Below are positions 4,194-58,405 of a DNA stretch of 64,000 nt, in pieces. The position numbers and the translations under genes were made by a program. Source of the stretch: a virus. The notes under the pieces were generated by a model that worked only from the letters and a program-made list of their open reading frames with translations, had not been told where the DNA came from and did not search any database. Numbering within the stretch: the first letter of the stretch is position 1; each line of letters begins with the position of its first letter. Where the stretch lies: positions 32,001-96,000 of IMG/VR virus record IMGVR_UViG_3300037258_000514; one strand, 5' to 3'.

Positions 4194-4499
4194 ATGGCGA
4201 TTAGAAATAGTCAAGACATTACACTAGTTGTTTTTTCAGGACAACCAAATGTAAGAGTTTCGCAAGACATTACACTAGTTGTTTTTTCAGGACAACCAAA
4301 TGTAAGAGTTTCGCAAGACATTACACTAGTTGCTTATACGAGACTTTTTGGTCCTGCAACACAGCTACTTACATTTACTGATCCTGGATTCGGTTTTAAG
4401 CCTGTGATACGAAGAAATCAAGGATTATTTCAAACGGCAAGTACTTTAGTATATCCAACAACACGAAAAGTATTTCCGATTGTATTTTGTGTAACATAG
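4194..4499 (+). CDS. small protein with 17-aa tandem repeats
   Basis: SQDITLVVFSGQPNVRV repeated about 2.4 times. Confidence 0.6.
   Translation: MAIRNSQDITLVVFSGQPNVRVSQDITLVVFSGQPNVRVSQDITLVAYTRLFGPATQLLTFTDPGFGFKPVIRRNQGLFQTASTLVYPTTRKVFPIVFCVT
4212..4332 (+). repeat. 51-bp perfect tandem repeat (coding)
   Basis: caagacattacactagttgttttttcaggacaaccaaatgtaagagtttcg twice plus a partial third copy. Confidence 0.95.
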
Positions 4500-4508
4500 G
4501 GAGGCAGT

Positions 4509-6002
4509 ATGAAGTGGAAGTTAGTTACAGCATTGCTATGTATTTGTATTGGAATCGTATCGTGTACAAAACCCGCGCAACAATCGAGTGCCAAACTTGT
4601 ACAAAATAAAACACTCGCACCCGAACAGCCTCAACCCAGTACAGTGCAAGGGGCGCCAACAAGTTATACAGTTGCAAGAACCGATCAAGCTATAACACAG
4701 GTTCCTGCTCCAATGCCTAAGTGGGGTTCAACAGGTATAGGACAGAAATGGTGTAATCCTGCTTTCAACGGAATTTGTATGATTCGTTTAACAGATAGAA
4801 CATCATGGCCGAATGCTGCCTCGGGTTTATCTGTTGAAGCCGGGAAAGAAAATCCTTTTTCAAAGGATTCAAAGTTTGTTATGGTATCGAATTCTAACGG
4901 AGCTTCGAAGATAATTGCGTTTGATCCGAAGAAAGAGCTCCCCAAAGCAACCGCTACCGTATTTAAAAACGGTCCTGCTGAATTTTCTTACAATGAAGCA
5001 AATAGTGCATTTCAGCGGCAGAATAAAACTCAAGTTGCTAAACTTACTTCAACAAATAGCTGGTTAACATATTCATCAACATTAGTATATGATTTTGCTA
5101 AGTGTTTGCCTACAGGATATGTTGTTACATGGGTAAGTTCCTGGTCGATCTCTTCGAGCGATACAGAGTTTACTTCCATTTATTCAAATAATGGCGGACA
5201 AGGATCTGGTGGACTTGTAGTGTACTGGAAGAAAAGTAAAGGCTGTGCATCGTTAAATACACTTACAGGAGTTGTAACAGACTGGAACGGAAAAGTACTC
5301 GGGACTATTGATGATGGATCTAAGCCTCTAGCCGATAGATTTGTTGTTCATGATGGTGGTTCTGTAAAAATGCCTGGAGTCGTATCTTTGGGTTATTCAG
5401 TTAATGACAATACTAAAGGTGCGAAAGGGACATCAGGTTGTAAAGCAGGAGATTGCGCTGGTAATGATCCTTACTTTTGGGAAGTGTATGATTCATCAGG
5501 AAAAGTTACTACGCATCTTCGACCATGCGGTCCTTATCAATGCGGAGGACATTCAGCCTCAGCGTATCAACATGCTGCGGGCAAAAAGCTAGAATTGCAC
5601 AATCTATTAAATCCTTCAACACCTTTAACAAAGTTAATTACACTTCCCTGTTGCGGTTATGACATGCAAGGATCTTGGAATAATGCTGATAGCACAAGTG
5701 CGCAGCCAATAGCAATCGTTACGTCACTTGTAACAAAAGTACCTGGTCCTCCATTTAACGGACCTTACCAGAATGAAATCACAATGGTTCAACCTGTAGC
5801 TAATGGCAAAGCTTGGAGAGAGGGGCAAACATTAAATACAGGAATGTCTCCTTACTATATTTGCCAAACAGCGCATCAATCTATAAGTCCGGATGGACAT
5901 TGGGTTCTATTCTCTACAGATGCTGGGGGTAATGGCGCTTTAGGGTATGAAGTAGGTAGCGCTATATCTGCATGTGACGCCTTCTTGATGGAATTAAAAT
6001 AA
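4509..6002 (+). CDS. secreted lipoprotein, probable beta-propeller
   Basis: Signal peptide with lipobox (IVSC); terminal 'SISPDGHWVLFSTD' TolB-like motif; many Cys; RBS GGAGG. Confidence 0.65.
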   Translation: MKWKLVTALLCICIGIVSCTKPAQQSSAKLVQNKTLAPEQPQPSTVQGAPTSYTVARTDQAITQVPAPMPKWGSTGIGQKWCNPAFNGICMIRLTDRTSWPNAASGLSVEAGKENPFSKDSKFVMVSNSNGASKIIAFDPKKELPKATATVFKNGPAEFSYNEANSAFQRQNKTQVAKLTSTNSWLTYSSTLVYDFAKCLPTGYVVTWVSSWSISSSDTEFTSIYSNNGGQGSGGLVVYWKKSKGCASLNTLTGVVTDWNGKVLGTIDDGSKPLADRFVVHDGGSVKMPGVVSLGYSVNDNTKGAKGTSGCKAGDCAGNDPYFWEVYDSSGKVTTHLRPCGPYQCGGHSASAYQHAAGKKLELHNLLNPSTPLTKLITLPCCGYDMQGSWNNADSTSAQPIAIVTSLVTKVPGPPFNGPYQNEITMVQPVANGKAWREGQTLNTGMSPYYICQTAHQSISPDGHWVLFSTDAGGNGALGYEVGSAISACDAFLMELK

Positions 6003-8302: not shown

Positions 8303-8740
8303 ATGCTAACAAACGTAGCAGCAGAGCGGCAAAAGAAGACACGATCCGACAGATTAGCTCGTGTAAAAGATCTTCTTCTAACGGGAGCTTCTAACGCTGT
8401 TATTTCAGAAGAACTACATGCAACTGAAAGAACAGTTAAAGCTTACATGCACTCTTTATTTACAATATACAATATCACAGGTAAATGCAAAAGAGTAAAG
8501 TTAGCCGTAAGATTAATTGACGATGTAGAAAAAGAACAGACAAATTTAAATATGACAAAGCTAGAGAAACTAATAATAAATCTTGTTGTAGAAGGAAAAA
8601 TTAATCGACAGATTAGCGAAGAACTCCATTTATCAGAAAATATGGTAAAAAATTATCTCCGCACTATATATGATAAAACAGGAATGGGTTGCAGAACAGA
8701 GTTAGCACTCTGGGCAAAATCAAAAAGTTTCGTTGCTTAG
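8303..8740 (+). CDS. tandem LuxR-type HTH regulator
   Basis: Two copies of 'G..N..ISEELH..E..VK.Y...IY.K.G...R.ELA'. Confidence 0.85.
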   Translation: MLTNVAAERQKKTRSDRLARVKDLLLTGASNAVISEELHATERTVKAYMHSLFTIYNITGKCKRVKLAVRLIDDVEKEQTNLNMTKLEKLIINLVVEGKINRQISEELHLSENMVKNYLRTIYDKTGMGCRTELALWAKSKSFVA

Positions 8741-8756: not shown

Positions 8757-8800
8757 GGGCTACAAACTGCTCCTGGAAGGGTTTGTAGCCCATTTTTATT
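8757..8800 (+). terminator. rho-independent terminator
   Basis: gggctacaaac...gtttgtagccc followed by atttttatt. Confidence 0.8.
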
Positions 8801-8812
8801 TTAAAGAAAAGC

Positions 8813-8842
8813 TTGACATTGGACCCTCAATTTTTATATTAT
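8813..8842 (+). promoter_or_regulatory. sigma70-type promoter predicting a leaderless transcript from the ATG at 8849
   Basis: TTGACA (8813-8818), 18 nt, TATTAT (8837-8842), 6 nt, ATG. Confidence 0.75.
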
Positions 8843-8848
8843 TACGCT

Positions 8849-9328
8849 ATGACATAGATGAATCAGAACGCCCCGAATCCTGCCGATAAATACGTGTATC
8901 TCTTCGTCCGCCAAGATCTACCAATTCAACACCAAATTGTTCAATCCAATCACGCCACTCATATGATGGCTTCGATTCGCCCGGAAGAGTGCGTGCCCAA
9001 TATCGTACTTATTGGTGTGCCCGACTTAAACGCTCTTCTTCGTGTGGCGCAGAAGCTTAGAGCTAATCAAATTCCTCACTACGAGTGGGTCGAACCAGAT
9101 TTTGATTTAGGTTTTACTTCAATTGCTACTGCTCCGATTACTGGAGAGAAGCGTCAAGTTTTGAAGAACTATAGACTTTATTCCCCTGGAACCGTTGCGG
9201 TAAACGGCGTCGCTTGTATAGACCAGCCAATCCGCGCAGCTTGTCTCTTAACTGAGGACAGGGGAGCCAGTGCCCGAGTAGCTCAACAGCAAGAGCAGCC
9301 CGGTCTAAACGGGATGGCTGAAGGTTAA
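8849..9328 (+). CDS. Pth2-like peptidyl-tRNA hydrolase with an in-frame amber at codon 3 (ATG ACA TAG ATG)
   Basis: 'YLFVRQDL....QIVQSNHA', 'IVLIGV', 'EPD...GFTSIATAP' match phage Pth2-fold proteins; C-terminus runs into tRNA-like elements. Confidence 0.75.
9182..9269 (+). ncRNA. degenerate tRNA-like RNA 1
   Basis: Acceptor TCCCCTG/CAGGGGA + G + CCA; D-like stem CCGTT/AACGG; weak T arm. Confidence 0.55.
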
Positions 9329-9347
9329 AGTCCTTCCTTGGGCACCA
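9272..9347 (+). tRNA. atypical tRNA with CUA (amber) anticodon
   Basis: 76-nt cloverleaf, GCCCGAG/CTTGGGC-A-CCA; loop GT-CTA-AA with CTA at nt 34-36; non-canonical D loop and T loop (TTAAAGT). Confidence 0.8.
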
Positions 9348-9350
9348 TAT

Positions 9351-9400
9351 AGGGCGGGCTAGCGCGCTAGCTAGGGGCTTCAGTGCCTCCCGCCCTACCA
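9351..9400 (+). ncRNA. 50-nt tRNA mimic (acceptor + T arm + one short hairpin, CCA end)
   Basis: AGGGCGG/CCGCCCT-A-CCA; T-like GGGGC-TTCAGT-GCCTC; palindromic GCTAGCGCGCTAGC. Confidence 0.65.
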
Positions 9401-9405
9401 GATAT

Positions 9406-9486
9406 GCCGCTGTAGCTCAGATGGGCTGTATCCAGAGCAGCTTCCTTTTAGGGAGCAGGTCGGTGGTTCGATTCCATCCAGCGGCT
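9406..9486 (+). tRNA. atypical tRNA, anticodon UUU (Lys-like), expanded D loop, no encoded CCA
   Basis: GCCGCTG/CAGCGGC; GCTTC-CT-TTT-AG-GGAGC; GGTTCGATTCC. Confidence 0.7.
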
Positions 9487-9489
9487 CTC

Positions 9490-9530
9490 TTTAAAATCGT
9501 GCGTCGGTTCGAACCCGACATGGCGCTCCA
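9490..9530 (+). pseudogene. orphan tRNA 3' half
   Basis: GTCGG-TTCGAAC-CCGAC-ATGGCGC-T-CCA with no matching 5' acceptor strand. Confidence 0.65.
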
Positions 9531-11171: not shown

Positions 11172-12326
11172 TCATTCTAGCTCCTTTGGTAAAACTAATA
11201 GCCCACTGTTTGTATAAACTAAGGAATACATTGTAGTTGATGTTAGTTCAAATGTTGCAGAGCACTTTCTTGTTTCCTCAACACAACATTTTACTAAGTG
11301 CACTCCTGTTCCTGTAAGTTGTTTTGGACCGACATGCTCAACAAGAAATTTAGCGATATTTTCAGCTGTAGGATTAAATGGAGTAATTACAACAGTTTTA
11401 TCAAGAGCCTTAAATGTTTTACTCCAAGGATCTTTCTTCCATATTAAAAATCTATGATCCCAGTTTGTTTCTAGCCATTGGCATAGAAGTGTGTTAATTA
11501 CTCCAAAATCAATTACTCTTCCTATTGAATCTAGAGAAGAAGCAACGCATGTAAAGTGTATTCTATAATTATGTCCATGAGCGTGGGAGCAAGCCCCTTC
11601 GTGTCCATATACTCTATGACCTGAAGAGAAATCGTGATAACGAGTAGCTGTAATTAAACTGTTATGAATTTTCTTAGCTATCCATAAGGGAATATCATGC
11701 TCCCAAAGTATTTCGACTTCCCATCCCTTTGCTTTGATAAAGCTAAGTCTTTGTTTTTCGTATGAAATACTTTTCTCTAAAACTTGTTTATCTACAATTT
11801 TATCAAATCCACATATCGAGCAGTTATGCCAAAAACATCCATTAACTTCGAGAATTTTCTTCTCATTTAGTGAGGCAAAATCTACTTGGTATCTTCCGAT
11901 ATGATATTGCCTTTTCCATCCCTGAAGATATTTCGCAACTAAATCTTCTACTTTTGATGTTTTTCTTCTGCCAACTTCAGGAGAATGAAAAATCCAATGT
12001 GCACCATTTTTTAGTGCTGTTGAAATCTTCTTAGCTATTTCAGGATCTTTAGCTATATTCTTCTCGCCATGCTGATATCCTACTTTAGGCATAGAAGTTC
12101 CGTAAATACCTAAGTATGTTTTTCCTTTTGTTCCGTGTCCTTGTTTATAAACAGGTCCGGATTTTACTTCGTGCGACAATCTTATAATTTTTGTTCCGCA
12201 TCCACAGGAACATTCTACTTCTATGGGTGTTAAGCATAAATTGCATATAAACGATTTAATATCGTTAGCTAGAAAACGGTCCTCGCAGTATTTGCAACTA
12301 CGCTCTTTCGGTGTAGTTAAACGCAT
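11172..12326 (-). CDS. queD: QueD (6-carboxytetrahydropterin synthase) with an N-terminal Vsr/DUF559-like endonuclease fusion
   Basis: C-terminal 'RYHDFSSGHRV...HGHNY...VIDFG...DHRFL...NPTAENIA..ET'; N-terminal CSCGCG and 'VDF...LEVNGCFWH...ILWEHD'. Confidence 0.85.
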   Translation of the reverse strand: MRLTTPKERSCKYCEDRFLANDIKSFICNLCLTPIEVECSCGCGTKIIRLSHEVKSGPVYKQGHGTKGKTYLGIYGTSMPKVGYQHGEKNIAKDPEIAKKISTALKNGAHWIFHSPEVGRRKTSKVEDLVAKYLQGWKRQYHIGRYQVDFASLNEKKILEVNGCFWHNCSICGFDKIVDKQVLEKSISYEKQRLSFIKAKGWEVEILWEHDIPLWIAKKIHNSLITATRYHDFSSGHRVYGHEGACSHAHGHNYRIHFTCVASSLDSIGRVIDFGVINTLLCQWLETNWDHRFLIWKKDPWSKTFKALDKTVVITPFNPTAENIAKFLVEHVGPKQLTGTGVHLVKCCVEETRKCSATFELTSTTMYSLVYTNSGLLVLPKELE

Positions 12327-25971: not shown

Positions 25972-26709
25972 TTAAGTTAATGCTCTTCTCGGACGTCCCG
26001 ATGGTTTTATTCTGTGCGTGAGACCGTAATGCCAACCATCAGGTAGTTGTTCTGTTTTAAGTAATTTCCTATTGTTTATGCCATTTGTAATTAAGTTGTA
26101 AGGATTTGCTTTTAATGTAACGGATTGATGAAGAGAACGCTTTAACTTGATTTCTGCAGAAGACGCAATACGCATTAATGAAGCTTTTCTTGCGGCCTTA
26201 ATTTCGGGCCTTTCCCAAACAATAGCGTTCTTACTTCCGCGTACTTTCCTGTATTGGGGATCAGACCATGTTTCTCTTATCCTAGTAGATTTTCTAGCTC
26301 TACTTTCTGGCGTTGAATGAATTTGCTTACAGATTGTTTGAAATAACAATCCGTATCGTGGCCCACCTTTAGAAGATTCTAAAACGTTATAACCATTTCT
26401 TACTGAATCGAAAAGCTTAATGTACGCTCTTTCCATTTCAAGCAAAATTTCTCTATTGTAATCATCTTGATAGTAAAGAGGAAGAAGTAGAAAAGAACTA
26501 ACTTTATACTTTAGAAGAGCACTTCGTATTATCGGACCGATACTACTTCTTTCAGGAGAAGTGTAATCAAGCAAACGTGTTGCCACATTCTGACTGATAC
26601 CAACATATTTCTTTTCATTTAGCATGTTTTGAATACAATATATACCGGGACGATATTCAGGGATATTACGTTCTAACACTTTGAACCCGCGCCAGTCTGC
26701 GAATATCAT
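25972..26709 (-). CDS. GIY-YIG homing endonuclease
   Basis: 'GIYCIQN...KKYVGIS', 'NGYN'. Confidence 0.85.
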   Translation of the reverse strand: MIFADWRGFKVLERNIPEYRPGIYCIQNMLNEKKYVGISQNVATRLLDYTSPERSSIGPIIRSALLKYKVSSFLLLPLYYQDDYNREILLEMERAYIKLFDSVRNGYNVLESSKGGPRYGLLFQTICKQIHSTPESRARKSTRIRETWSDPQYRKVRGSKNAIVWERPEIKAARKASLMRIASSAEIKLKRSLHQSVTLKANPYNLITNGINNRKLLKTEQLPDGWHYGLTHRIKPSGRPRRALT

Positions 26710-29220
26710 CTAGAAATAGCTCCCAGTAAATTTAGTTAGAGTTTCCAAATCGCACCAGTTATATCCTACTCGCGCTTCTGTCATAAGTGGTACCGTTACA
26801 AAAGGAAATCTTGGTTTAACTATTTCAACTCCTATCGTAGTAATATACGATTCCGTTTTATCTGAATCAGGTATCGCGAAGATTAGATCGTCATGAACAT
26901 TAACCCGAGGTAATAAATTCATATCTGTCTCAATTGCCATCTCAAATAGAGCGTTTTGGGCTTCTAACACAAGCTCTGCAGCAGTACCTTGAACAGGTGT
27001 ATTAATTACTTCGTTTCCAGGTAGTACTTCGTTCCTCTCTCTGCCTGTTAGTGAAGCTACCGTTCCCGTAGCTTTATACCTTCTAAACTGTCCGTCAACC
27101 CAAGCTTTTGTTACTTTATATTCTGTCCAGAATTCATGCAAGATCTCTTCGCAAATACGAAGCGGGATTCCCGTCCTTGTAGCAATAGATTTAGCAATTG
27201 ATCCATAAAAGCTGGCAAATACAAAATCAGTTTTAATGATCGTGCGCCCGCCTTTTAGTATGTGCTTCTCTGTTGTTTCTCCTGTCTTTTGTTTTAGACG
27301 ATCCATATAAGCCGGATAGGCTTTAATAATTCTATACAGCCATTTCCAGTGGATATCGTCATCATCTACAAAAGCTTTCTTTAAGACAGGATCTTTACTA
27401 AACATTGCGATAACTCTGCCTTCAAGTTGTCCATAGTCAAAAGCAGCAAACATATAACCAGGAGGAGGGATTATCTGACGTCTAACCTCTCTGTGCTTTC
27501 GTTTCGGCCAATTCTGCATGTTGGGATCGGCGCCAGAGAGGCGATAAGTGTTTGTGTGAACTACAGTATATTGTCCGTGGATAAGTCCATCTACACCGAT
27601 AATACGTCCCTTTAAAATCGGATCAACGTAAGTGGATTTTTGTTTTTCAACTTCTCTGTATTCAAGAGTTAAATCAATTAATCTACAACTTTTCTTCTCC
27701 GCTAATTTTTCAAGTTCGTCTGCTTCTGTAACATAGTTTATTTTTCCCGCTGCAGTGACGTTCGTTGGAACTTGATAGTGATAATACTTATCCAATACGT
27801 AAGCTAAAGTTTGACCTGAGGAAATACTAAATATTTTGCTTTCTTTTTTCTCAAAATCTCTAACTTCAGGTAATAATGAAGCTTCTTTTTCACATGCTTG
27901 AGATTTCTTAAATAAGTCTTTCTGTAGCGATTCACTCTCCTTAATGTCGTAGTTTAATCCCTGTACTTCCATTGCAACAGTTGATTGCACTGTTTGAACA
28001 CTGCGTCGGTAATTAGGCAATTGAACAGGAGGAAGCATTTCAAGCATTTGGTAATATAACAATGCTTCAGCCCAAGCATCCAGCGCATTATACTCTAAAA
28101 CTTGTTCAGGAGAATATTCAGATAAGCGCTCTTTATCAAGCGGTCCTAATCCCTGTCCTGCAAGTGCGTTGTTTGTTAACTGCTTTACATCAATACCGAA
28201 ATAAATACGTGATAGAACATCTAAACTACCAAGTCCTTTTCTCTTGTGAAGTAAACGTGCAAGAATTTCTGTATCATGTAATTTCTGTTTGTAGTTCTTT
28301 GTCAAACCTACGATCCAAGGAAGTTCCATACTAGCATGTTGTGCTATCCATTCTTTATCGGATAACATCATTTCAGTTAGTACTTCCATTCCCCACGGAT
28401 CTAAATCACCCGGCCATCTAACTTTGAATGAAAACGTGAGTATTCCATCAGAACATCCACAAGTAAGTAAACGCGCGTCACGTTGGTAATGTCGAAACTT
28501 AAACGTTTCAAAATCTATTGCATAAGGACTTCTTAATTTATGAAAAAGATTAAGAACTTCTTGCTTTGTTTTTGGATAGAGTATTTCTTTTGGGGGAATT
28601 TTAATCTTTGGCGGAGCTTGAAATTTGGTCTTAACGTTCTCAAAGAAGTTTATAAGGTCATTTTGGAAAAGAGGCAGTACTGTATTAACTGTACTTCCAT
28701 CTGCATAATCTTCTCTCTCAGCACGTGCGACGTAAGATGGATGAAAAGTAGATGTAAACCAGCAAACGTGATCTCCAACTATAACAGGAAAAGGAATTCC
28801 TCTTATTTTAGAGATTGTAGGAGCATCCGGCCAAAAATAATTGAGTGCCTCATTTCCAATACCAAGAATGGCATGGGGACGGAGACTTAGGATATCCTGT
28901 TTAAGAAAGTTGGCACAACAGCTTACCTCACGTGGTGTTGGAGTTCTATTCTTTGGTGGACGACATCTTACTGTGTTCTGCCAATAAAGCTTTTTCTCCC
29001 AGTTAGGAGGGAAGTTTTCACGAAGAAACTGTCCTGTCTTTCCAATAAACGGAAACCCTTTATCGTCTTCGGTTTGTCCAGGAGCTTCTCCAATTACCAA
29101 TACTTTGTAAGGACTTTGCTCCTTCGCTATTGCCATAGGCATGCGAGGGGTCTTTAATATTGGCCACTCCTGTTTCAAGGAGCAGGAATTGCAGCTGTCG
29201 AATTGTATTAGTCCGGGCAA
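26710..29220 (-). CDS. family A DNA polymerase with an N-terminal uracil-DNA-glycosylase-like domain
   Basis: UDG 'GEAPG', 'CRPP.NRTP', 'HPSY'; exonuclease 'DFET'; Pol 'DYGQLE', 'NTPVQGTA', 'VHDD'. Confidence 0.93.
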   Translation of the reverse strand: MPGLIQFDSCNSCSLKQEWPILKTPRMPMAIAKEQSPYKVLVIGEAPGQTEDDKGFPFIGKTGQFLRENFPPNWEKKLYWQNTVRCRPPKNRTPTPREVSCCANFLKQDILSLRPHAILGIGNEALNYFWPDAPTISKIRGIPFPVIVGDHVCWFTSTFHPSYVARAEREDYADGSTVNTVLPLFQNDLINFFENVKTKFQAPPKIKIPPKEILYPKTKQEVLNLFHKLRSPYAIDFETFKFRHYQRDARLLTCGCSDGILTFSFKVRWPGDLDPWGMEVLTEMMLSDKEWIAQHASMELPWIVGLTKNYKQKLHDTEILARLLHKRKGLGSLDVLSRIYFGIDVKQLTNNALAGQGLGPLDKERLSEYSPEQVLEYNALDAWAEALLYYQMLEMLPPVQLPNYRRSVQTVQSTVAMEVQGLNYDIKESESLQKDLFKKSQACEKEASLLPEVRDFEKKESKIFSISSGQTLAYVLDKYYHYQVPTNVTAAGKINYVTEADELEKLAEKKSCRLIDLTLEYREVEKQKSTYVDPILKGRIIGVDGLIHGQYTVVHTNTYRLSGADPNMQNWPKRKHREVRRQIIPPPGYMFAAFDYGQLEGRVIAMFSKDPVLKKAFVDDDDIHWKWLYRIIKAYPAYMDRLKQKTGETTEKHILKGGRTIIKTDFVFASFYGSIAKSIATRTGIPLRICEEILHEFWTEYKVTKAWVDGQFRRYKATGTVASLTGRERNEVLPGNEVINTPVQGTAAELVLEAQNALFEMAIETDMNLLPRVNVHDDLIFAIPDSDKTESYITTIGVEIVKPRFPFVTVPLMTEARVGYNWCDLETLTKFTGSYF

Positions 29221-29442
29221 TTTACTTTGGTTCTAAGAGATAGATACCTACAATTGCATCCTGCATAAAATATGCAATGGTTTCAGTTTTATCTCCGTTA
29301 GTTTTATCTCTGTTAGTCTTATAAAGCGAGACTGTCGGCGCATACCAACCAGTTCCATCAGCTTCTATGTCAACATACTTAGTTGTTACAGATGCACGTA
29401 CTGCTGCGACATCGTTACCCCGAAATATTATCCTGTAAGTTT

Positions 29443-48993: not shown

Positions 48994-49069
48994 TGGTGTC
49001 CCCGCTGGGATTCAAACCCAGATTTCCGGTTTCGTAGACCAGCGCCTTGTTCAATTGGACTACGGGGAC
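48994..49069 (-). tRNA. tRNA-Arg(ACG)
   Basis: Cloverleaf, loop CT-ACG-AA, CCA. Confidence 0.92.
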
Positions 49070-49480
49070 GTTTACTTTAATAAGTTTGGCATTGTCTCTT
49101 TGTAGTTATCAACTGTAACTAAATTACCATTCGATGCAACAAGTATTGGGAATCCCTTGTTAGTATCGCATTCAAAAGCTATACCGCATCCAGGACAATG
49201 TTTAATCCAAGGATAGGCGATGATCTGAAACGTTTTACAGTTTGAACACCGCATTCGTAGAGCTGTTACTTCAAAATGGGGTTCATTTATTATTTGTAAA
49301 TTTGCCGCGTGCGCCTACCTTCCAATCAATTGCCTGCTGGTGATCTAACGTTACGCAGTCTGCTACACTGTCGTAGACGGCGATTAATCCGCTTAGATCA
49401 GTCATGTTAAGCTCTTCTTTAACCTGGTCAAATGTAAGACGTTTTTCTGAGTCAAGAACAATGTATATTAGCATAAGTTT

Positions 49481-49556
49481 TGGTGCTAGCACTCGGATTC
49501 AAACCGAGATCTATTACTTAGGAGGTAATTGTCCTCTTCAATTGGACGATGCCAGC
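49481..49556 (-). tRNA. tRNA-Arg(CCT)
   Basis: Loop CT-CCT-AA, CCA. Confidence 0.92.
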
Positions 49557-49888
49557 TTTTCTTTATTTGCAGCCTGAAAACTTTTTTCGCGTTCTTCTTT
49601 ACAATGAGCGCATCCCGCGCATTCGATGTCGGCAATATCAAACTGTAAAAGTCTTTGTGGTTTGCCTTTAAATGTTTTGCAAAACTCTTGTACTACGGCT
49701 TGTGTTGAGTAATGCTGAGCTTCTTTCCAAGCTTCCCAGCGCTCCTCAAGATAGTTGTCAAGATAGCTGCCATGTTCCGTGCGCTGAAGTCCCTGTAACG
49801 GATGGACCCATCCGTTAAGAACCGCACGCTCTTCAAACTGTTCTCTCTGCGTCATTGTATTTTGTCTGCACAATCCACAAGATCGCAT
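49538..49888 (-). CDS. hypothetical protein, stop inside tRNA-Arg(CCT)
   Basis: ORF track; TGA lies in the D loop. Confidence 0.6.
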   Translation of the reverse strand: MRSCGLCRQNTMTQREQFEERAVLNGWVHPLQGLQRTEHGSYLDNYLEERWEAWKEAQHYSTQAVVQEFCKTFKGKPQRLLQFDIADIECAGCAHCKEEREKSFQAANKEKLASSN

Positions 49889-50259
49889 AGGATAGCTTTC
49901 ACAAAATCTTTGCCCATGCGTTCAGCATCAATTTCTACTTTGCCATCACTTCTTGTATGGAAAGTAATTTGTCCAAAACCGATTCCAGGTACGGACCAGT
50001 TAAGTTCAACCCACTGTCCACCATGGAATGTATGTTCCTTTCCTGCACTATCAATTCCGATTGTATCAGGACGATAGCCTACCGATCCAATTTTAACAAA
50101 TGAGGCGTGGACATTTCCTTTTTCTACTTCTTCGATCTTAACAGTTCCAATATTGTTTAGATCTGCTCCCTTTGGGAGTATAACAGATGCGGCTGTTGAT
50201 GCAAGTTTTTCTTTAATTTCTACTTCAGTTAAAGGAGCGGGTATGTGTTTTTTAATCAT
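49852..50259 (-). CDS. hypothetical protein
   Basis: ORF track. Confidence 0.55.
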   Translation of the reverse strand: MIKKHIPAPLTEVEIKEKLASTAASVILPKGADLNNIGTVKIEEVEKGNVHASFVKIGSVGYRPDTIGIDSAGKEHTFHGGQWVELNWSVPGIGFGQITFHTRSDGKVEIDAERMGKDFVKAILCDLVDCADKIQ

Positions 50260-50284
50260 TGGATTTTATCTAAACTCGGTAAAA

Positions 50285-50359
50285 TGGAGGAGCTAGCCGG
50301 ATTCGAACCGACGTTCACGGCTTAGAAGGCCATGTCCTGTCCTATTGGATGATAGCCCC
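50285..50359 (-). tRNA. tRNA-Arg(TCT)
   Basis: Loop CT-TCT-AA, CCA. Confidence 0.9.
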
Positions 50360-50383
50360 GATCTTATATAATTACCTGTAATT

Positions 50384-50458
50384 TGGTAGGGCCAGCGGGA
50401 GTTGAACCCGCATCCCGGGATTGAGAAACCCGTCGCCTAACCGTTAGCAGATGGCCCC
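50384..50458 (-). tRNA. tRNA-Glu(CTC)
   Basis: Loop TT-CTC-AA, CCA. Confidence 0.88.
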
Positions 50459-50826
50459 ACATAGCGTTTGTAAGCAGCATCCATTACAAAAGTTATATTC
50501 ATTTTGCCTACGGGATTCATTGAGTGAACTAAGTAGTTTTTCGGAAGTTGTCCTTGTTCAATTAACCACTTAGCACAATCGTATCCCGTTTTCTCCTGAA
50601 AAATTTCGTAAGGAATTTTAACTTCATTTAGTTTTTTATCAATCTCTGCATATGCAACAACATCGCAATAGTGTTGGTAGTGTTCGGTTCCAAGATCGTG
50701 GTCGAAACTGATTACGTCCGGTACGCCGTGAAGCTCGATGTAGGCAATAAATTCTTCGTATGATCGAACCACGTCCCAAGTAAAATCAGGTGGAAGTCTA
50801 CTATCATCTAAAAATAGCTTTCTCAT
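50437..50826 (-). CDS. cyclic-phosphate-processing receiver-domain protein
   Basis: 'LFLDD.R', 'ISFDHDLG', 'TGYDCAKWL', 'HSMNPVG'. Confidence 0.85.
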   Translation of the reverse strand: MRKLFLDDSRLPPDFTWDVVRSYEEFIAYIELHGVPDVISFDHDLGTEHYQHYCDVVAYAEIDKKLNEVKIPYEIFQEKTGYDCAKWLIEQGQLPKNYLVHSMNPVGKMNITFVMDAAYKRYVGPSANG

Positions 50827-51152
50827 TTCAACATCCTCTCATATTGTTGCGTTTGTTTATCATATTGTTGCGTTATTTTACGCAGTTGATGAATATGAAT
50901 TATTTCGAACGTTATTCTTACGATCATTAAAATTGCAATTAAAATAAGAAAGCGAAAGTGGTGATTAGACCTTTTCATTCAACACTCCCCAACTCGATCC
51001 TACGGCATAAGTGGGGAAACCGCATTCTTTTAAGTTAGAGCTTACCCATGCCGCGATTTCTTCATTTGTCTTTCCGTGCATATGTGCTGCTGCTTTAATT
51101 GCAAATTCGAAACACAGATCAACGAGTTTTTGTTTTTCGTTTATCATAAATT

Positions 51153-51230
51153 TGGTGGGGGCCGTGGGATTCGAACCCACTACCTTCCGCTTAAAAGGCG
51201 GTAGCTGCAATCCTTATGAGCTTCGCCCCC
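51153..51230 (-). tRNA. tRNA-Lys(TTT)
   Basis: Loop CT-TTT-AA, CCA. Confidence 0.88.
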
Positions 51231-51286
51231 ATCTAAGATGTGTTAAGTATTTCTACAGCTACAAAACGTTTCATTTATTCTCCTTT

Positions 51287-51826
51287 CTAAATATATACTG
51301 TCTTCATATATTGTTCAAATCGCATTGCACTCAATCTTATGGCGTAAGCATAAGCCTCGTCTTGCTCTTTTGTAATCGTAAGTTTTCCATTCTTATCACG
51401 CGGTAGATGTTGCATGTAAAACTTTATTCCACCTTCCATCGCATTCCTAACTCCTGGTTGGCGAACATAAACTTTATACTTCTTATCGCTCGGTTCAATT
51501 TCAACCACAGATTGATAGGAAGCATCAGGATCTGCACTTATACATCTGTTAATTAAAGCAAATAGATCGTCAGGATGTAACGAACCGCAAAAACTACACA
51601 CACGATTTCCATTTAATTTAAACTTATGCCATCTATCCAATCCTTTTGTGTGTTCCCAAGAACCGATTCCCTGCATTCTACGTCCGCACGTTATAGGCTC
51701 AGATAGCGTATCAACCAAGCTTAAGTACGTAGGTTCTTCTTCTATTATTCCACTACATCCAACAGTCTGACATTTTTCCCCGAGAACATCAGTTGAGCGT
51801 CCTATTAAGCATTTTTTGCAATACAT
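51287..51826 (-). CDS. Cys-rich hypothetical protein
   Basis: 'CSFCGSLHP', 'KFY.QH'. Confidence 0.6.
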   Translation of the reverse strand: MYCKKCLIGRSTDVLGEKCQTVGCSGIIEEEPTYLSLVDTLSEPITCGRRMQGIGSWEHTKGLDRWHKFKLNGNRVCSFCGSLHPDDLFALINRCISADPDASYQSVVEIEPSDKKYKVYVRQPGVRNAMEGGIKFYMQHLPRDKNGKLTITKEQDEAYAYAIRLSAMRFEQYMKTVYI

Positions 51827-51842
51827 ATGGCTCCTAAGAAGT

Positions 51843-51920
51843 TGGTGGACCGCCCGGGAATTGAACCCGGAACCTTCCGCTTAAGAGGCGGTTGCTCTCA
51901 GCCTATTGAGCTAGCGGTCC
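51843..51920 (-). tRNA. tRNA-Lys(CTT)
   Basis: Loop CT-CTT-AA, CCA. Confidence 0.93.
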
Positions 51921-52615
51921 CCTTTTTAAAATTAACTAAAATTCTTGTTGTTTTTGCATTAAAAGTGTTTTTCTATTACAACGTGCTATCCTCCCTTCCA
52001 TTTCAGATCAACACTTAGTGATAGGGCTGTTGAAGCCAACTCTGGCATCACTGTCGTACGCTGTTGAAAATCTAAGCCTTTTTAGGTTCAGGCTCTTCGA
52101 ATCTTTTTACTTCCGCTTTCGGATCCATTTTGTGAACTACAGGCTCCTTGAAAGCATAGACTTCGTGGAAGAATTTCTCCAAGAATTCTGCTGTTACTTC
52201 ACCTGCAGTTTCAAATTCAACAAGAATACGTTTCCTGTCGCCTACGATGTTTTCCGATTTGAGAATTTTAACATTACTTATACGTGCCATTTCTTCTCCT
52301 ATTGAGGTATATCTGAAAGTTGACCGATAGCGTTTTTAATTGTATTAAGTGCGTTCAAGTCATTACACGTTATACCAGAAATAGCTTTCATTGCTCGTTC
52401 CCTCATACTAACTGCGCCTCCAGTATAACCAGCCTGGAAGATTTGAAATTGTGTTGCGCTCTTGTTATCGTTTAATAGCTTGTTAAAAGCATCGTTCAGT
52501 TTATCAGCCATTGTTCTCCTTTGTTTTTCATTCTCTTGTCCCTGTTCCCAACTTGTAGCAGCGCGCATTCCTTCTTGTACACCTAGGTACAAGCCTTCAT
52601 TTGTACTCCTGAAAT

Positions 52616-52690
52616 TGGTAGGCGTAGAGAGAATCGAACTCCCGTAGGACGGTAATCGGCCCGTCTGCTCTGCCCCTGAGCTATACGCCT
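52616..52690 (-). tRNA. tRNA-Ile(GAT)-like, 8-nt anticodon loop
   Basis: AGGCGTA acceptor; GACGG-GCCGATTA-CCGTC. Confidence 0.75.
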
Positions 52691-52848
52691 AAAAAAACTT
52701 ACTTTGTGCAGAACTTCGCATGTTTGGTTCTTTGTTTTTTTGAACGAAATCTATTCCCGCAGAAGCCACAAAGTTGTTTCAGCATGTGACCAGTGCCTGA
52801 TGAGCCTTCACGTACTGCTGTTGGTTTTTTCATTTATTCTCCTAAAAT

Positions 52849-52924
52849 TGGTGCACCCGGAAGGACTCGAACCTCCGATAACTGTCTTGTAAGGGCAGCG
52901 TTTTAGCCGCTAAACTACGGGTGC
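52849..52924 (-). tRNA. tRNA-Val(TAC)
   Basis: Loop CT-TAC-AA, CCA. Confidence 0.92.
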
Positions 52925-53001
52925 ATCTAGGTGCTCACCGCACCTAGACTTTGAACTTAAACATCCCCCAAGGCTTTTATACCTTTATGTTTAAGCTAAA
53001 A

Positions 53002-53096
53002 TGGTAGTGGACCGGGGAATCGAACCCGCGCCGTCGCTCTAATCTGGAGCTCTCCGGTGAGTATAAGGCACCGCCGCACATCCAGTGCTGTCCACC
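53002..53096 (-). tRNA. atypical tRNA, TAT anticodon, short D arm, long variable arm
   Basis: GGTGGAC/GTCCACT-A-CCA; CGGTG-CCTTATACT-CACCG; GGTTCGATTCC. Confidence 0.7.
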
Positions 53097-53801
53097 ATTA
53101 ACTTTCAAAACTTTTCAAATTTGCGTAAACTTCTGCGTCATGCAAACCTTCTGTTGTAAAAGGAAATCTTGCAATCGGACTAAAATCTTTTTCCAAGAAG
53201 TGCGGATCAAGTTTAATTCTGTCTTTAATACGCTCTTTCGTAGAACGATAAACTAAAATCTTCCTGCCATCGTAAGGAGTACAGCCTAAATATCTTGCCT
53301 GTACCACACATATACAGGATAAGCTCTTGATCTCTTTAATGTTGATTATAGAAAAGAGTTCAGGATTAGGATTCGGTGGATCAGTTTTGCCTGCACTACT
53401 ACCAAGTAAATTTATTCCCATTTTAGATATTCTCAAAAATTGGTATTCGCAAATCACATTTAGGATTCATCGAGTACTTTGTTCGGTACCAGTAAACGTA
53501 TGAATGCCATTTCGGATTGTAGTAAGCTTCTTTCTCTTCTTTGTTAAGTAACTTCATAAGAAGCTCAACGTTATCTACTATAATCTCGTCAGGTTGATCT
53601 TGCCAATCAGCCCACAATTTTTGTAATCCATCTTCTATCTCTAGAATTAGATCAGGATATTTTTCCACTAAGTGGAGTTCGACTCCACGTAAGTCTAAAC
53701 GATGTCGCGTTGTTCTGCGCGTATTGTAGTAGTTCTCTTGCTCAGGCGTTAGTTTTGCAATTCCGCACACGTGGCACCCCGGTGATCCGCACATAAAGTT
53801 T

Positions 53802-53875
53802 TGGTGGCTCGTGACAGAATCGAACTGTCGTAGGTTGCTTATGAGACAACTGAACTACCACTGTTCTAACGAGCC
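53802..53875 (-). tRNA. tRNA-Met/Ile2(CAT)
   Basis: Loop CT-CAT-AA, CCA. Confidence 0.9.
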
Positions 53876-53884
53876 TCTAAATTT

Positions 53885-53962
53885 TGGCTGTGGGAGAGGG
53901 ATTCGAACCCCCGACCGTCACCTTAACAGGGTGCCGCTCTTACCGGACTGAGCTATCCCACA
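53885..53962 (-). tRNA. tRNA-Asn(GTT)
   Basis: Loop CT-GTT-AA, G73, CCA. Confidence 0.92.
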
Positions 53963-54579
53963 AAGTTTTTTGCTACTGCGATCCATTGTTGCGGATCGTT
54001 AAACATTTCTTTCCACTTAATACGCAAAACTTTCCAACCTTTGCTAATTAAGTAAGTATCTTTTCTCTGATCTCTTTCTTTAACTTCAATGTCTTCGTGT
54101 TGCTGGCCATCAATTTCAATTGCAAGCATTTTATTCTTCCAGGCGAAGTCAATTTTAAAAACTCCGGTCTGTAAGTTAAAATCATAATATTTATCTGTAA
54201 ATTCGTTTTCTATAACTTTCATGAAAAATTGTTCAGGATAAGATGGTTCGTTATTCCATTGACAAAATCCAATGTTATGTGCACGACCTTCGGCATGAGC
54301 CACTTTCATTTTTTCTGATAGTAGTTGTTTAGTTTCTTTTGTTTGAACTCTTCCTTGCCTGCCGCGTAATTTATTACTGCAACGTGCCGCGCTTAATGCT
54401 ACTCGAGGATCTTGTTTCGTTAATCCTTTATTCCAAGGAATGTTTCCTTTTGCTGATCCTGCTTTAAATGTTATTCCTGCCCCGTGCATTCTCCAGACGT
54501 GTGAAGCAAGTCCTCTTTCAGGTAATTCTTTTTCGCAATGATTGCATATTACTCGTGTTTTTGAAAGCGTATTATACAT
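53953..54579 (-). CDS. C2H2 + DUF559-like homing endonuclease; stop inside tRNA-Asn
   Basis: 'C.HC.....GL.SH...H', 'PWNKGL', 'IDFAW', 'IEIDG.QH'. Confidence 0.85.
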   Translation of the reverse strand: MYNTLSKTRVICNHCEKELPERGLASHVWRMHGAGITFKAGSAKGNIPWNKGLTKQDPRVALSAARCSNKLRGRQGRVQTKETKQLLSEKMKVAHAEGRAHNIGFCQWNNEPSYPEQFFMKVIENEFTDKYYDFNLQTGVFKIDFAWKNKMLAIEIDGQQHEDIEVKERDQRKDTYLISKGWKVLRIKWKEMFNDPQQWIAVAKNFVG

Positions 54580-54585
54580 AAAAAC

Positions 54586-54698
54586 TTCTGCAACAGTTAT
54601 CCGCCTTTTACTAGCCACTAGTAGAACTATTGTATTGGAAGTCCGCGGTGCTCCCCTCATTCCTACTAGTGATAGCGAGCTATGAATCTGTTGCAGAA
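54586..54698 (-). ncRNA. unassigned long hairpin RNA (strand inferred)
   Basis: TTCTGCAACAG/CTGTTGCAGAA closing stem and CACTAGTAG/CTACTAGTG inner stem. Confidence 0.55.
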
Positions 54699-54703
54699 AG
54701 TTG

Positions 54704-54946
54704 TTATTCGACTAAGCTAAAGTCGACGTAAAAGCGTTTCTTAGCGTGTAATGCATCCACAAAAATCTTAAATGCATCCGGATTTGTAATCATCATTTGT
54801 ATTGAGCCTGAAGGTGTCCATTTCGACCAATCTGTGTTGTCACCTTCTTTATCATTTCCGGCAGTTAGTTTAACGTTGCCTGAACCTTCCGGAGATTCAT
54901 ATAACTCAACGCCTGTTACTCTAAACTTCGCTCTTACTTGTGCCAT
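54704..54946 (-). CDS. conserved small phage protein
   Basis: 'VRAKF', 'WSKWTPSG.I...ITNP.A', 'YVDF'. Confidence 0.7.
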   Translation of the reverse strand: MAQVRAKFRVTGVELYESPEGSGNVKLTAGNDKEGDNTDWSKWTPSGSIQMMITNPDAFKIFVDALHAKKRFYVDFSLVE

Positions 54947-55013
54947 TTTATTTCTCGAAGCCGTATAGCTTTATCGGCTAAGAATTTTCTACGGTACTAC
55001 TCTCCGTAAGAAC

Positions 55014-56057: not shown

Positions 56058-56062
56058 TTACT

Positions 56063-56372: not shown

Positions 56373-56375
56373 GTC

Positions 56376-58399: not shown

Positions 58400-58405
58400 G
58401 CAGGC

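What the first reader, a model, noticed from the sequence alone, without database searches (positions are those of the whole stretch)
8813..9530. Amber-gated peptidyl-tRNA hydrolase co-transcribed with its own CUA-anticodon tRNA and tRNA mimics
Seen: an insulated unit (terminator at 8757-8800 upstream, convergent helicase downstream). Its promoter TTGACA-18-TATTAT places the transcription start at the A of ATG 8849. The message reads AUG ACA UAG AUG AAU..., so the Pth2-like ORF has an in-frame amber at codon 3 and no Shine-Dalgarno before either AUG. About 420 nt downstream in the same unit is a 76-nt tRNA with CTA exactly at positions 34-36. Established: two-codon minigenes (lambda bar type) promote peptidyl-tRNA drop-off, which is the Pth substrate. 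Inference: Pth is made only when UAG is read through (via the linked suppressor or weak RF1 termination) or by re-initiation after the Met-Thr minigene. That would be a stop-codon-sensing switch for a translation-rescue enzyme. I know of no description of such a module.
Basis: partly seen in the sequence, partly recalled or inferred. Interest (0 to 1): 0.92.

Follow-up and report, generated by a model that had tools for sequence, protein, structure and literature searches.

The report
Amber-gated phage Pth2-like gene cassette
A soil phage that otherwise uses the normal genetic code puts a UAG stop at the third codon of a small tRNA-hydrolase-like gene and carries its own UAG-reading tRNA and tRNA look-alikes right behind it, an arrangement kept in about 90 distant phages, so the enzyme is most likely made only when that tRNA overrides the stop.

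Summary
The key one is not chance. In 90 of 93 distinct homologous loci, the first in-frame stop upstream of the conserved domain is TAG. It is preceded in frame by ATG, as exactly ATG-NNN-TAG in 66 of 88 loci. The base after TAG is a purine in all but one.

The ATG is abutted either by a TTGACA-type promoter (leaderless mRNA) or by a Shine-Dalgarno sequence, so it is the true start. A tRNA-CUA lies on the same strand within 1.5 kb in 54 of 90 TAG-gated loci. Three cultured phages that lack a nearby one carry it elsewhere in the genome. The one clear TGA-gated relative has a tRNA-UCA.

The protein has a Pth2 fold (TM 0.70-0.78), although the window's copy scores below Pfam's PTH2 threshold. 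The window's genome uses the standard code, and no other gene in it looks gated. About 50-nt, N-CCA-ended tRNA-like minihelices are a conserved part of the cassette.

I found no paper describing this. The XacN1 paper states that the targets of its CUA tRNAs could not be identified. This scan has noted the same module before on other DNA. Nothing here is experimental, and the enzyme's substrate, the inserted residue and the purpose of the gate are unknown.

The parts
8757..8802 (+). Intrinsic terminator that closes the upstream LuxR/GerE-type gene (8303-8740) and insulates the cassette
   Evidence: Sequence read shows an 11-bp G+C-rich stem (8757-8767 / 8781-8791) followed by a T-run. The inner part was picked up by the consensus scan. 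The upstream gene has Pfam GerE at E=3.2e-18.
8813..8842 (+). Sigma-70-type promoter: TTGACA, then 16/18 nt, then TATATT/TATTAT. It places the transcription start at about A8849, giving a leaderless mRNA.
   Evidence: 11 of 12 consensus matches. In 29 homologous loci an exact TTGACA ends 28-32 nt before the gate ATG. The transcription start site itself is inferred, not measured.
8849..8857 (+). The gate: the true start ATG, then ACA (Thr), then an in-frame TAG at codon 3
   Evidence: Sequence read. ATG-NNN-TAG occurs in frame in 66 of 88 TAG-gated loci, and TAG is the first upstream stop in 90 of 93 distinct loci. The gate is also present in cultured phages.
8858..9328 (+). Pth2-like ORF downstream of the gate. 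The conserved domain is 8885-9193. The tail from 9194 to 9328 runs through a minihelix and into the tRNA gene, and the stop codon TAA 9326-9328 lies inside the tRNA.
   Evidence: ORF listed. Pfam PTH2 scores 15.2 bits, E=0.026, below the cut-off. The AF2 model has pLDDT 88. The top Foldseek hits are all Pth2, with TM 0.70-0.78. There are 929 homologs in 1.8e9 representative proteins.
9182..9269 (+). Probable tRNA-like minihelix (type 2, with an enlarged first hairpin). Its acceptor-like stem is TCCCCTG/CAGGGGA, followed by G-CCA. It is embedded in the 3' tail of the ORF.
   Evidence: The fold shows the closing stem and the CUC-UUAACU-GAG hairpin, but the z-score is only -0.47. Support comes from matching elements at the same position in L051, L073, L004 and L065, and from the conserved 'YSPG...CLLTEDGGA' tails in homolog proteins. 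The evidence is weaker than for 9351-9400.
9272..9347 (+). tRNA with anticodon CUA (an amber-reading suppressor candidate). It has G1:C72, A73 and an encoded CCA. Its D and T loops are non-canonical (no GG in the D loop; T loop UUAAAGU).
   Evidence: Found by ARAGORN and by Rfam tRNA at 54.6 bits. 66 distinct CUA tRNAs occur in homologous cassettes. The amino-acid identity is undetermined: its best identity to the phage's own tRNAs is 68%.
9351..9400 (+). tRNA-like minihelix (type 1): an 8-bp acceptor-like stem, two hairpins, then A-CCA, and no anticodon arm
   Evidence: The fold gives -29.3 kcal/mol with z=-2.2. There are 50 such elements on the + strand in 43 of 93 loci, against 1 on the - strand. 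12 of 13 consensus pairs show compensatory double changes.
9406..9487 (+). Second tRNA. Rfam's alignment places anticodon UUU (Lys-like). It has an 11-nt insertion in the D loop and is the only tRNA in this genome without an encoded CCA.
   Evidence: Rfam tRNA scores 53.2 bits. ARAGORN's 'Trp cca at position 27' is a mis-registration. It is 70% identical to the phage's tRNA-Lys(CUU). A canonical tRNA-Lys(UUU) sits in this slot in relatives and is present in 14 of 93 loci.
9503..9530 (+). T-arm plus 3' acceptor strand plus U-CCA, with no matching 5' strand. It is either a tRNA remnant or an incomplete mimic.
   Evidence: Sequence read. The fold is not significant (z=-1.25). Conservation was not tested.

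Best explanation
The region 8813-9530 is one small phage transcription unit. It consists of a promoter, a Pth2-like gene, and a string of RNA genes: an N-CCA minihelix, a tRNA-CUA, a second N-CCA minihelix and a Lys-like tRNA.

**How the gate works.** Ribosomes start at the 5'-terminal AUG (8849), add Thr, and meet UAG as codon 3. If RF1 wins, only a dipeptide results, either fMet-Thr or dropped-off fMet-Thr-tRNA. If the cassette's aminoacylated tRNA-CUA wins, translation continues into the Pth2-like domain. The amount of enzyme is therefore set by how well UAG is being read through in the infected cell. This makes the gene a built-in reporter of suppressor activity.

**What is shown here:**
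- the anatomy of the unit;
- the family-wide conservation of the gate and of the tRNA-CUA linkage;
- the Pth2 fold;
- the standard genetic code of this genome.

**What is inferred:**
- co-transcription;
- the leaderless start;
- charging of the tRNA;
- read-through itself.

**Why the enzyme is tied to suppression.** My preferred reading is that the enzyme deals with a by-product or a risk of suppression. That would be peptidyl- or blocked aminoacyl-tRNAs that accumulate when UAG is misread, so the enzyme is supplied in proportion to suppression. The frequent tRNA-Lys(UUU) in the cassette fits a peptidyl-tRNA-recycling role. From memory, tRNA-Lys is the limiting tRNA in E. coli pth mutants. A negative-feedback version, in which the enzyme discharges the suppressor as RF2 limits its own synthesis at prfB, is equally compatible with the data.
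For: **Conservation of the gate.**
- TAG is the first in-frame upstream stop in 90 of 93 distinct loci at 31-68% protein identity.
- ATG lies exactly two codons before the TAG in 66 of 88 loci.
- The same gate is present in ten further phage records that I checked: Cronobacter GAP32, Salmonella Arash, Acinetobacter ME3, Ralstonia RsoM2USA, Xanthomonas XacN1 ORF364, Tenacibaculum pT24 and four huge uncultured phages.

**The ATG before the TAG is the real start.**
- It is abutted by TTGACA-17-TAnnnT at leaderless distance in 36-42 loci.
- It is preceded by GGAG-type Shine-Dalgarno motifs in 33-39 loci.

**Re-initiation cannot be general.**
- Codons after TAG include GAT, GGG, AAG, GAA, CTG and many GTT/GTC/GTA.
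- Gene callers truncate or miss the gene in public records.
- One database protein was only obtained by reading TAG as Q.

**Linkage to the suppressor tRNA.**
- A tRNA-CUA lies on the same strand within 1.5 kb in 54 of 90 TAG-gated loci. It is by far the commonest tRNA there.
- GAP32, RsoM2USA and pT24 have none nearby but carry one 2.6-13 kb away.
- The TGA-gated relative L045/L137 has a tRNA-UCA 1 kb upstream and no CUA tRNA.

**Context of the stop codon.** The base after TAG is a purine in 87 of 88 loci. From memory (Bossi; Miller and Albertini), this is the context that favours tRNA suppression over release.

**This genome is not recoded.**
- TAG ends 18 of 67 long ORFs.
- ATG-N-TAG starts are not enriched at other genes: TAG 9 of 81, TGA 10 of 97, TAA 7 of 143.
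- The one long TAG-joined frame in the window that gave domain hits is a DNA polymerase followed by a separate homing endonuclease. The other (4194-6002) gave no family hit and stays unresolved.

**Fold.** Foldseek's first 11 PDB hits are all Pth2 enzymes.
Against: - There is no expression, proteomic or biochemical evidence of any kind. No RNA run holds this DNA (recorded under Tried and rejected).
- In this window the codon after TAG is ATG (8858), so some enzyme could be made without read-through. Six of 88 relatives share this.
- 82 of 88 codons after TAG are AUN or GUN. These are near-cognate start codons, so a start-stop/re-initiation design is not excluded by that feature alone.
- The window's tRNA-CUA lacks the usual G18G19 and T-loop C56, so it may be a poor elongator (alignment).
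- TAG terminates about a quarter of the phage's own genes, so an efficient suppressor should be costly.
- The window protein is below Pfam's PTH2 cut-off. The family also lacks the two-residue 'GK' segment of the Pth2 N-terminal motif, so peptidyl-tRNA hydrolase activity is not assured.
- Stop-codon/anticodon covariation rests on a single TGA/UCA lineage in my data.
- 36 of 90 TAG-gated loci show no CUA tRNA within the DNA fetched.
Confidence: 0.7

Rival explanations
1. Start-stop minigene with re-initiation. AUG-ACA-UAG is a complete two-codon ORF of the lambda bar type. The Pth2-like protein is translated by ribosomes that re-initiate, or initiate independently, at the next codon: AUG 8858 here, and AUU/AUC/GUU in relatives. 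The tRNA-CUA is not needed.
For: In the window an ATG directly follows the TAG. 82 of 88 codons after the TAG are AUN or GUN, which are near-cognate starts. Two-codon minigenes are an established phage device, as with lambda bar (AUG AUA UAA), reviewed in PMC8012679.
Against: - Re-initiation would work with any stop codon, yet 90 of 93 loci use TAG, and TAA is the commonest stop in this genome.
- GUU/GUC/GUA, GAU, GGG, AAG, GAA and CUG follow the TAG in about 35 loci, and these are not used as starts.
- This reading does not explain the strong same-strand linkage to tRNA-CUA, or the TGA gate paired with tRNA-UCA.
Confidence: 0.13
2. Ordinary recoding. These phages read TAG as a sense codon throughout late infection (code 15-like), and the TAG in this gene is just one recoded codon with no special gating role.
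For: Suppressor tRNAs and in-frame TAGs are well documented in recoded phages (bioRxiv 10.1101/2021.08.26.457843). A public gene caller translated one homolog with TAG=Q.
Against: - The window's genome ends 27% of its long ORFs with TAG and shows no other credible in-frame TAG.
- Under plain recoding the TAG would be scattered through the gene. Instead it is fixed 1-12 codons after the start in about 90 divergent loci.
- The XacN1 authors found no read-through targets among 18 amber stops (PMC5852040).
Confidence: 0.05
3. Decaying gene. The TAG is a nonsense mutation in a pseudogene left beside a tRNA cluster.
For: The gene is unannotated or truncated in many public records.
Against: The same position is hit in about 90 lineages while the downstream domain stays open and conserved, with 929 homologs and invariant R, D, H and PD residues.
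Confidence: 0.01

Closest known systems
Stop-codon-recoded phages with phage-encoded suppressor tRNAs (TAG read as Gln, 'code 15'; Borges et al., bioRxiv 10.1101/2021.08.26.457843)
   Same: A phage tRNA-CUA allows translation of phage genes that contain in-frame TAG. Those authors propose that this times gene expression.
   Different: - Here the genome keeps the standard code.
- A single gene is gated, always within the first few codons.
- The gated gene is itself a tRNA-end enzyme homolog and is physically linked to the tRNA.
- That preprint does not mention any hydrolase (0 occurrences).
prfB (RF2) autoregulation through an early in-frame UGA
   Same: A translation-factor gene carries an early in-frame stop, so its expression reports how that stop is being decoded.
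   Different: - prfB is bypassed by a +1 frameshift, and its product is the factor that reads the stop.
- Here the bypass would be by a suppressor tRNA.
- Whether the enzyme feeds back on suppression is unknown.
Lambda bar minigenes (AUG AUA UAA), reviewed in PMC8012679
   Same: A phage two-codon AUG-NNN-stop unit whose abortive product is a Pth substrate.
   Different: - bar stands alone and is toxic only in pth-deficient hosts.
- Here the unit is in frame with, and directly precedes, a conserved Pth2-like ORF.
- The stop here is specifically TAG.
Archaeal/eukaryotic Pth2 (PF01981; PDB 2zv3, 1q7s, 3erj, 1wn2, 1xty)
   Same: Same alpha/beta fold, with TM 0.70-0.78. Shared elements are VRxDL...Q..HA and an acidic residue before the fourth strand.
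   Different: - Sequence identity is about 15-18%.
- The window protein scores below Pfam's threshold.
- The 'GK' segment of the N-terminal motif is absent.
- The family appears phage-restricted: it was not found in 185,579 species genomes using the two patterns scanned.
Acceptor/T-arm minihelices and the tRNA-like domain of tmRNA
   Same: An acceptor-like stem, a discriminator base, a CCA end, and no anticodon arm.
   Different: - These are natural, roughly 50-nt stand-alone genes in a phage tRNA cassette, with two hairpins.
- No messenger part and no known partner has been found.
- There is no Rfam match at E<=1.

Membership tests
PTH2 peptidyl-tRNA hydrolase (Pfam PF01981) | Score at or above Pfam's gathering threshold (23 bits) | tested here: not met
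   The window protein scores 15.2 bits, E=0.026. 13 of 26 homologs give weak hits, the best at E=0.0011. The XacN1 homolog does pass, at 25.3 bits.
PTH2 peptidyl-tRNA hydrolase (Pfam PF01981) | Pth2 alpha/beta fold | tested here: met
   The AF2 model has pLDDT 88.2 and pTM 0.82. The 11 best Foldseek PDB matches are all Pth2/Bit1, with probability 1.00 and TM 0.70-0.78.
PTH2 peptidyl-tRNA hydrolase (Pfam PF01981) | Conserved catalytic residues. From memory these are a Lys in the N-terminal GK segment and an Asp before strand 4. | tested here: inconclusive
   The family keeps invariant R18, D20, H32 and P80-D81. Its profile aligns to a solved Pth2 with a 2-residue gap where that chain has 'tgK'. 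I could not confirm the published catalytic residues from a paper.
PTH2 peptidyl-tRNA hydrolase (Pfam PF01981) | Hydrolysis of peptidyl-tRNA | not testable with these tools
   This needs an enzyme assay or complementation of E. coli pth(ts).
Amber suppressor tRNA | Cloverleaf tRNA with anticodon CUA at positions 34-36 | tested here: met
   Found by ARAGORN. Rfam tRNA scores 54.6 bits with a full-length model match.
Amber suppressor tRNA | Aminoacylated, and decodes UAG on the ribosome | not testable with these tools
   Identity elements are ambiguous: A73, G1:C72, and at most 68% identity to any of the phage's own tRNAs. The D loop lacks GG and the T loop lacks C56.
Stop-codon-recoded (code 15) phage | In-frame TAG in many genes, and TAG rarely used as a terminator | tested here: not met
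   TAG ends 18 of 67 long ORFs. ATG-N-TAG gates are not enriched at other ORFs. The one TAG-joined frame that gave domain hits is two separate genes; the other gave no hit.
Lambda bar-type minigene | A free-standing AUG-NNN-stop whose only product is a dipeptidyl-tRNA | tested here: not met
   The AUG-ACA-UAG is in frame with a conserved ORF and directly followed by it in about 90 loci. It may still behave like a minigene when it is not suppressed (inference).
prfB-like autoregulatory recoding | The gene product controls decoding of its own early stop codon | not testable with these tools
   Only the early in-frame stop in a translation-related gene is shown. No feedback has been demonstrated.

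The most novel reading that the evidence does not exclude
The cassette is a self-contained homeostat for stop-codon read-through. The suppressor tRNA licenses synthesis of a Pth2-like enzyme. That enzyme in turn acts on the 3' end of the suppressor, or on the N-CCA minihelices made from the same transcript. This would hold UAG read-through at a set level in a phage that still needs TAG as a stop. It would be a tRNA-based analogue of prfB autoregulation, and the minihelices would be a new class of small RNAs serving as substrates, decoys or buffers.
Probability: 0.2. Interest if true: 0.92.

Novelty: new variant of a known kind. Interest (0 to 1): 0.82.

Why it matters
**An open question it would answer.** Authors of jumbo-phage genomes have raised this explicitly. 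[quoted passage not shown] The target appears to sit at the 5' end of a gene that annotation pipelines truncate or miss, not at a 3' end.

**A new kind of natural circuit.** It would be a compact, single-gene translational switch operated by a tRNA in a standard-code genome. That is distinct from whole-genome recoding.

**It is directly testable.** The same gate is present in cultured phages of Salmonella, Cronobacter, Acinetobacter, Ralstonia and Tenacibaculum.

**Further leads.**
- The linked N-CCA minihelices and anticodon-less tRNA mimics are unexplained conserved RNAs.
- The cassette also points to a phage-specific branch of the Pth2 superfamily with unknown substrates.

**Practical consequence.** Annotation pipelines should read this gene through its early TAG.

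Tried and rejected
- **RNA evidence:** The look-up of sequencing runs listed one DNA holder (a soil metagenome, possibly the source sample) and no RNA holder.
- **DNA search against GenBank phages:** blastn with the region gave no match.
- **Scan of 185,579 species genomes:** the two peptide patterns found no relative. This covers only those patterns, and earlier scan notes mention Acidobacteria copies that I did not test.
- **Sequence searches against the PDB:** the single protein gave nothing, and the narrow profile (A2) gave only a chance match to a designed repeat protein. The broader profile gave one weak Pth2 hit.
- **Inferring the inserted residue from 'MTQ' N-termini in the protein library:** this failed. 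One is TAG read as Q by the gene caller. The other has its own ATG-CTC-TAG just upstream.
- **Assigning the tRNA-CUA to an amino acid by similarity to the phage's 30 other tRNAs:** the best match was 68%, which is not informative. Across relatives the discriminator base varies (G, U, A), and many cassettes carry two different CUA tRNAs.
- **Other gated genes in the window:**
  - Frame 25972-29385 (-) is a UDG-exo-PolA polymerase followed by a separate GIY-YIG endonuclease.
  - Frame 4194-6002 (+) gave no family spanning the TAG.
- **HDV-like 'theta' ribozyme reading of the element after the tRNA:** I considered this (PMC10879173 was listed). I set it aside because the element is a simple nested three-way junction ending in N-CCA, with no pseudoknot order and no Rfam ribozyme match.
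- **More TGA/TAA-gated lineages:** searches found only L045/L137. The AT-rich huge phages L142-147 have a tRNA-UUA nearby but no clear gate.
- **Published Pth2 catalytic residues:** I could not retrieve them.
Full report
**Observation**

The window is part of a 176-kb IMG/VR virus record from a soil metagenome. The record is estimated 86% complete and carries 32 tRNA genes.

- A strong terminator at 8757-8802 closes a LuxR/GerE-type gene.
- The promoter has TTGACA at 8813-8818, with TATATT or TATTAT 16 or 18 nt later.
- The start region reads ATG 8849, ACA, TAG 8855, ATG 8858, with no Shine-Dalgarno motif.
- A 156-codon ORF runs to 9328.
- A 76-nt tRNA with anticodon CUA lies at 9272-9347.
- A convergent DnaB-like helicase gene follows.

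Its TAA lies inside the tRNA.

**Is the ATG-ACA-TAG meaningful?**

On its own it could be chance, so I collected relatives. A full HMMER search found 929 homologs. Many of their gene calls start inside the domain or at odd codons, which suggested that gene callers cannot find the start.

Profile scans gave 47 viral and 80 metagenomic loci, which collapse to 93 distinct sequences. The pattern across them is as follows.

- In 90 of 93 loci, the first in-frame stop upstream of the conserved domain is TAG, lying 0-13 codons before the domain.
- It is always preceded in frame by ATG. The arrangement is exactly ATG-NNN-TAG in 66 of 88 scorable loci.
- In this genome TAG is the upstream stop of only 81 of 321 long ORFs, so the null expectation is about 25%.
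- The ATG has the marks of a true start. An exact TTGACA ends 28-32 nt upstream in 29 loci, which is the geometry of a leaderless mRNA. A GGAG-type Shine-Dalgarno motif sits 4-13 nt upstream in 33-39 others.
- The codon after TAG begins with a purine in 87 of 88 loci. It is mostly ATT, ATC or GTT, but also GAT, GGG, AAG, GAA and CTG, which cannot initiate translation.

The same gate is present in cultured phages:

| Phage | Gate |
|---|---|
| Cronobacter GAP32 | ATG GCA CAA TAG |
| Salmonella Arash | ATG CTG TAG |
| Acinetobacter ME3 | ATG ACT TAG ATT |
| Ralstonia RsoM2USA | ATG TTG TAG |
| Xanthomonas XacN1 ORF364 | ATG AAG TAG, four codons before the annotated start |
| Tenacibaculum pT24 | ATG AAA TAG |

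It is also present in four huge uncultured phages of up to 735 kb. In several of these records the gene is unannotated or truncated.

**Link to the suppressor tRNA**

- ARAGORN finds a tRNA-CUA on the same strand within the fetched 1.5 kb in 54 of 90 TAG-gated loci, and within 600 nt in 46. No tRNA of any kind lies on the opposite strand.
- CUA is by far the commonest anticodon in these cassettes.
- GAP32, RsoM2USA and pT24 have none within 1.5 kb. Each carries one 2.6-13 kb away on the same strand, and pT24 has only four tRNAs in all.
- The one relative whose gate is TGA (L045/L137: ATG, nine codons, TGA) has a tRNA-UCA 1 kb upstream and no CUA tRNA.
- L033 has no gate and is followed by an ordinary tRNA-Arg.

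The stop/anticodon covariation rests on one lineage in my data.

**What the protein is**

- Pfam gives only a sub-threshold PTH2 hit (15.2 bits).
- An AlphaFold model of the domain is confident (pLDDT 88).
- Its 11 best PDB matches are all Pth2 enzymes, with TM 0.70-0.78.
- The XacN1 homolog passes Pfam's PTH2 threshold.
- A family profile weakly hits a solved Pth2 and aligns VRxDL...Q..HA.
- The family lacks the two-residue 'GK' segment of that motif, so catalytic equivalence is open.
- No relative was found in 185,579 bacterial and archaeal species genomes with the patterns used.

**This is not plain recoding**

- TAG ends 18 of 67 long ORFs in the window.
- ATG-N-TAG starts are no commoner than ATG-N-TGA or ATG-N-TAA at other ORFs of the genome.
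- Of the two long TAG-joined frames in the window, one is a DNA polymerase followed by a homing endonuclease. The other has no domain spanning the TAG.
- The genome has only one Pth2-like gene.

The suppressor therefore has one visible client: the gene beside it.

**The 'tRNA mimics'**

Directly after the tRNA-CUA lies a 50-nt element at 9351-9400. It has an 8-bp acceptor-like stem, two hairpins, then A-CCA.

- A structural scan found 50 such N-CCA minihelices on the cassette strand in 43 of 93 loci, against one on the opposite strand.
- In an alignment of 22 of them, 12 of 13 consensus pairs show compensatory double changes.
- A second, longer copy probably lies at 9182-9269 inside the ORF's tail. 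Its 5' strand encodes the conserved 'YSPG' ending of the protein, and relatives have the same element at that position.
- The next gene (9406-9487) is a Lys-like tRNA with anticodon UUU by Rfam's alignment. It has an 11-nt D-loop insertion and no encoded CCA.
- A canonical tRNA-Lys(UUU) occupies this slot in relatives. It is the second commonest tRNA of the cassettes, present in 14 of 93 loci, with the next commonest in 5.
- Relatives also carry tRNA-shaped RNAs whose anticodon loop is replaced by a tetraloop.
- In 48 of 57 loci with an RNA gene close behind, the ORF's stop lies inside or beyond that RNA. Excision of the RNA would then leave a message without a stop codon. This is an inference and was not tested.

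**Mechanism**

The best-supported reading is a translational gate. The enzyme is made only when UAG at codon 3 is decoded by the cassette's tRNA rather than by RF1.

Why a Pth2-like enzyme should be tied to suppression is not shown. Three rationales fit the data:

- **Supply on demand.** More read-through means more stalled or dropped peptidyl-tRNA, so more hydrolase is made. The linked tRNA-Lys(UUU) fits this. From memory, it is the tRNA that limits growth of E. coli pth mutants (Heurgue-Hamard 1996).
- **Negative feedback.** The enzyme acts on the suppressor, as in prfB.
- **Delay.** The gate acts as a timing device.

In this window the ATG after the TAG could allow some ungated synthesis.

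**Literature and earlier notes**

- Full-text searches found no description of an amber-gated Pth2-like gene.
- The main recoding preprint does not mention a hydrolase.
- The XacN1 paper reports two CUA tRNAs whose targets could not be identified, and separately lists a peptidyl-tRNA hydrolase.
- This scan has reported the same module many times on other DNA. My tests here were run independently and agree with those notes.

**Verdict**

This is a real, deeply conserved and apparently undescribed regulatory arrangement. It is a specialised, single-gene, cis-linked variant of suppressor-tRNA-dependent expression in phages, together with unexplained conserved tRNA-like RNAs. It is entirely computational so far.

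Noticed in passing
window 9326-9328 vs 9272-9347; related loci L004-L130: The Pth2-like ORF has no stop codon before the RNA genes. Here the TAA lies inside the tRNA-CUA. In 48 of 57 relatives with an RNA gene close behind, the stop lies inside or after that RNA. Processing of the tRNA would leave a non-stop message.
   Followed up: partly
window 52616-52690 (-): ARAGORN calls a tRNA with a four-base anticodon (cgat) within the large tRNA array. Relatives' cassettes also hold tRNAs with 4-base or 2-base 'anticodons' (ttta, taaa, aata, gcaa, tcaa, ta).
   Followed up: no
L028 2025-2100, L119 547-625, L016 1860-1934: These are tRNA-shaped RNAs with normal acceptor, D and T arms, but the anticodon loop is replaced by a closed tetraloop (GCAA, AUAC). 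They are anticodon-less tRNA mimics sitting in the same cassettes.
   Followed up: no
window 25972-29220 (-): A fused UDG / 3'-5' exonuclease / family A DNA polymerase gene (836 aa) ends in TAG. It is followed immediately, in the same frame, by the ATG of a GIY-YIG homing endonuclease (245 aa).
   Followed up: partly
window 11172-12326 (-): A 384-aa protein joins a DUF559 endonuclease-like N-terminal part to a 6-pyruvoyl-tetrahydropterin synthase (QueD-like) domain. This suggests 7-deazaguanine (queuosine-type) metabolism in this phage.
   Followed up: no
window 48994-63976 (-) and beyond to genome 98769: An array of 30 tRNA genes, all with encoded CCA, is interspersed with small ORFs. It is separate from, and on the opposite strand to, the Pth2-like cassette.
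   Followed up: no
L008, L011, L012, L051, L083, L084, L087: Many cassettes carry two different CUA tRNAs, typically one with discriminator G73 and one with U73. This hints at two suppressors with different amino-acid identities.
   Followed up: partly
L136 (Xanthomonas phage XacN1, record 243741-244595): In XacN1 the Pth2-like domain is the C-terminal third of a 280-aa protein (ORF364). The ATG-AAG-TAG gate sits four codons upstream of the annotated start. The N-terminal 180 residues match no Pfam family.
   Followed up: partly
window 9503-9530: A canonical T-arm (GTCGG TTCGAAC CCGAC), a 7-nt 3' acceptor strand and U-CCA, with no matching 5' strand nearby. It could be a tRNA remnant or half of a split tRNA.
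   Followed up: no
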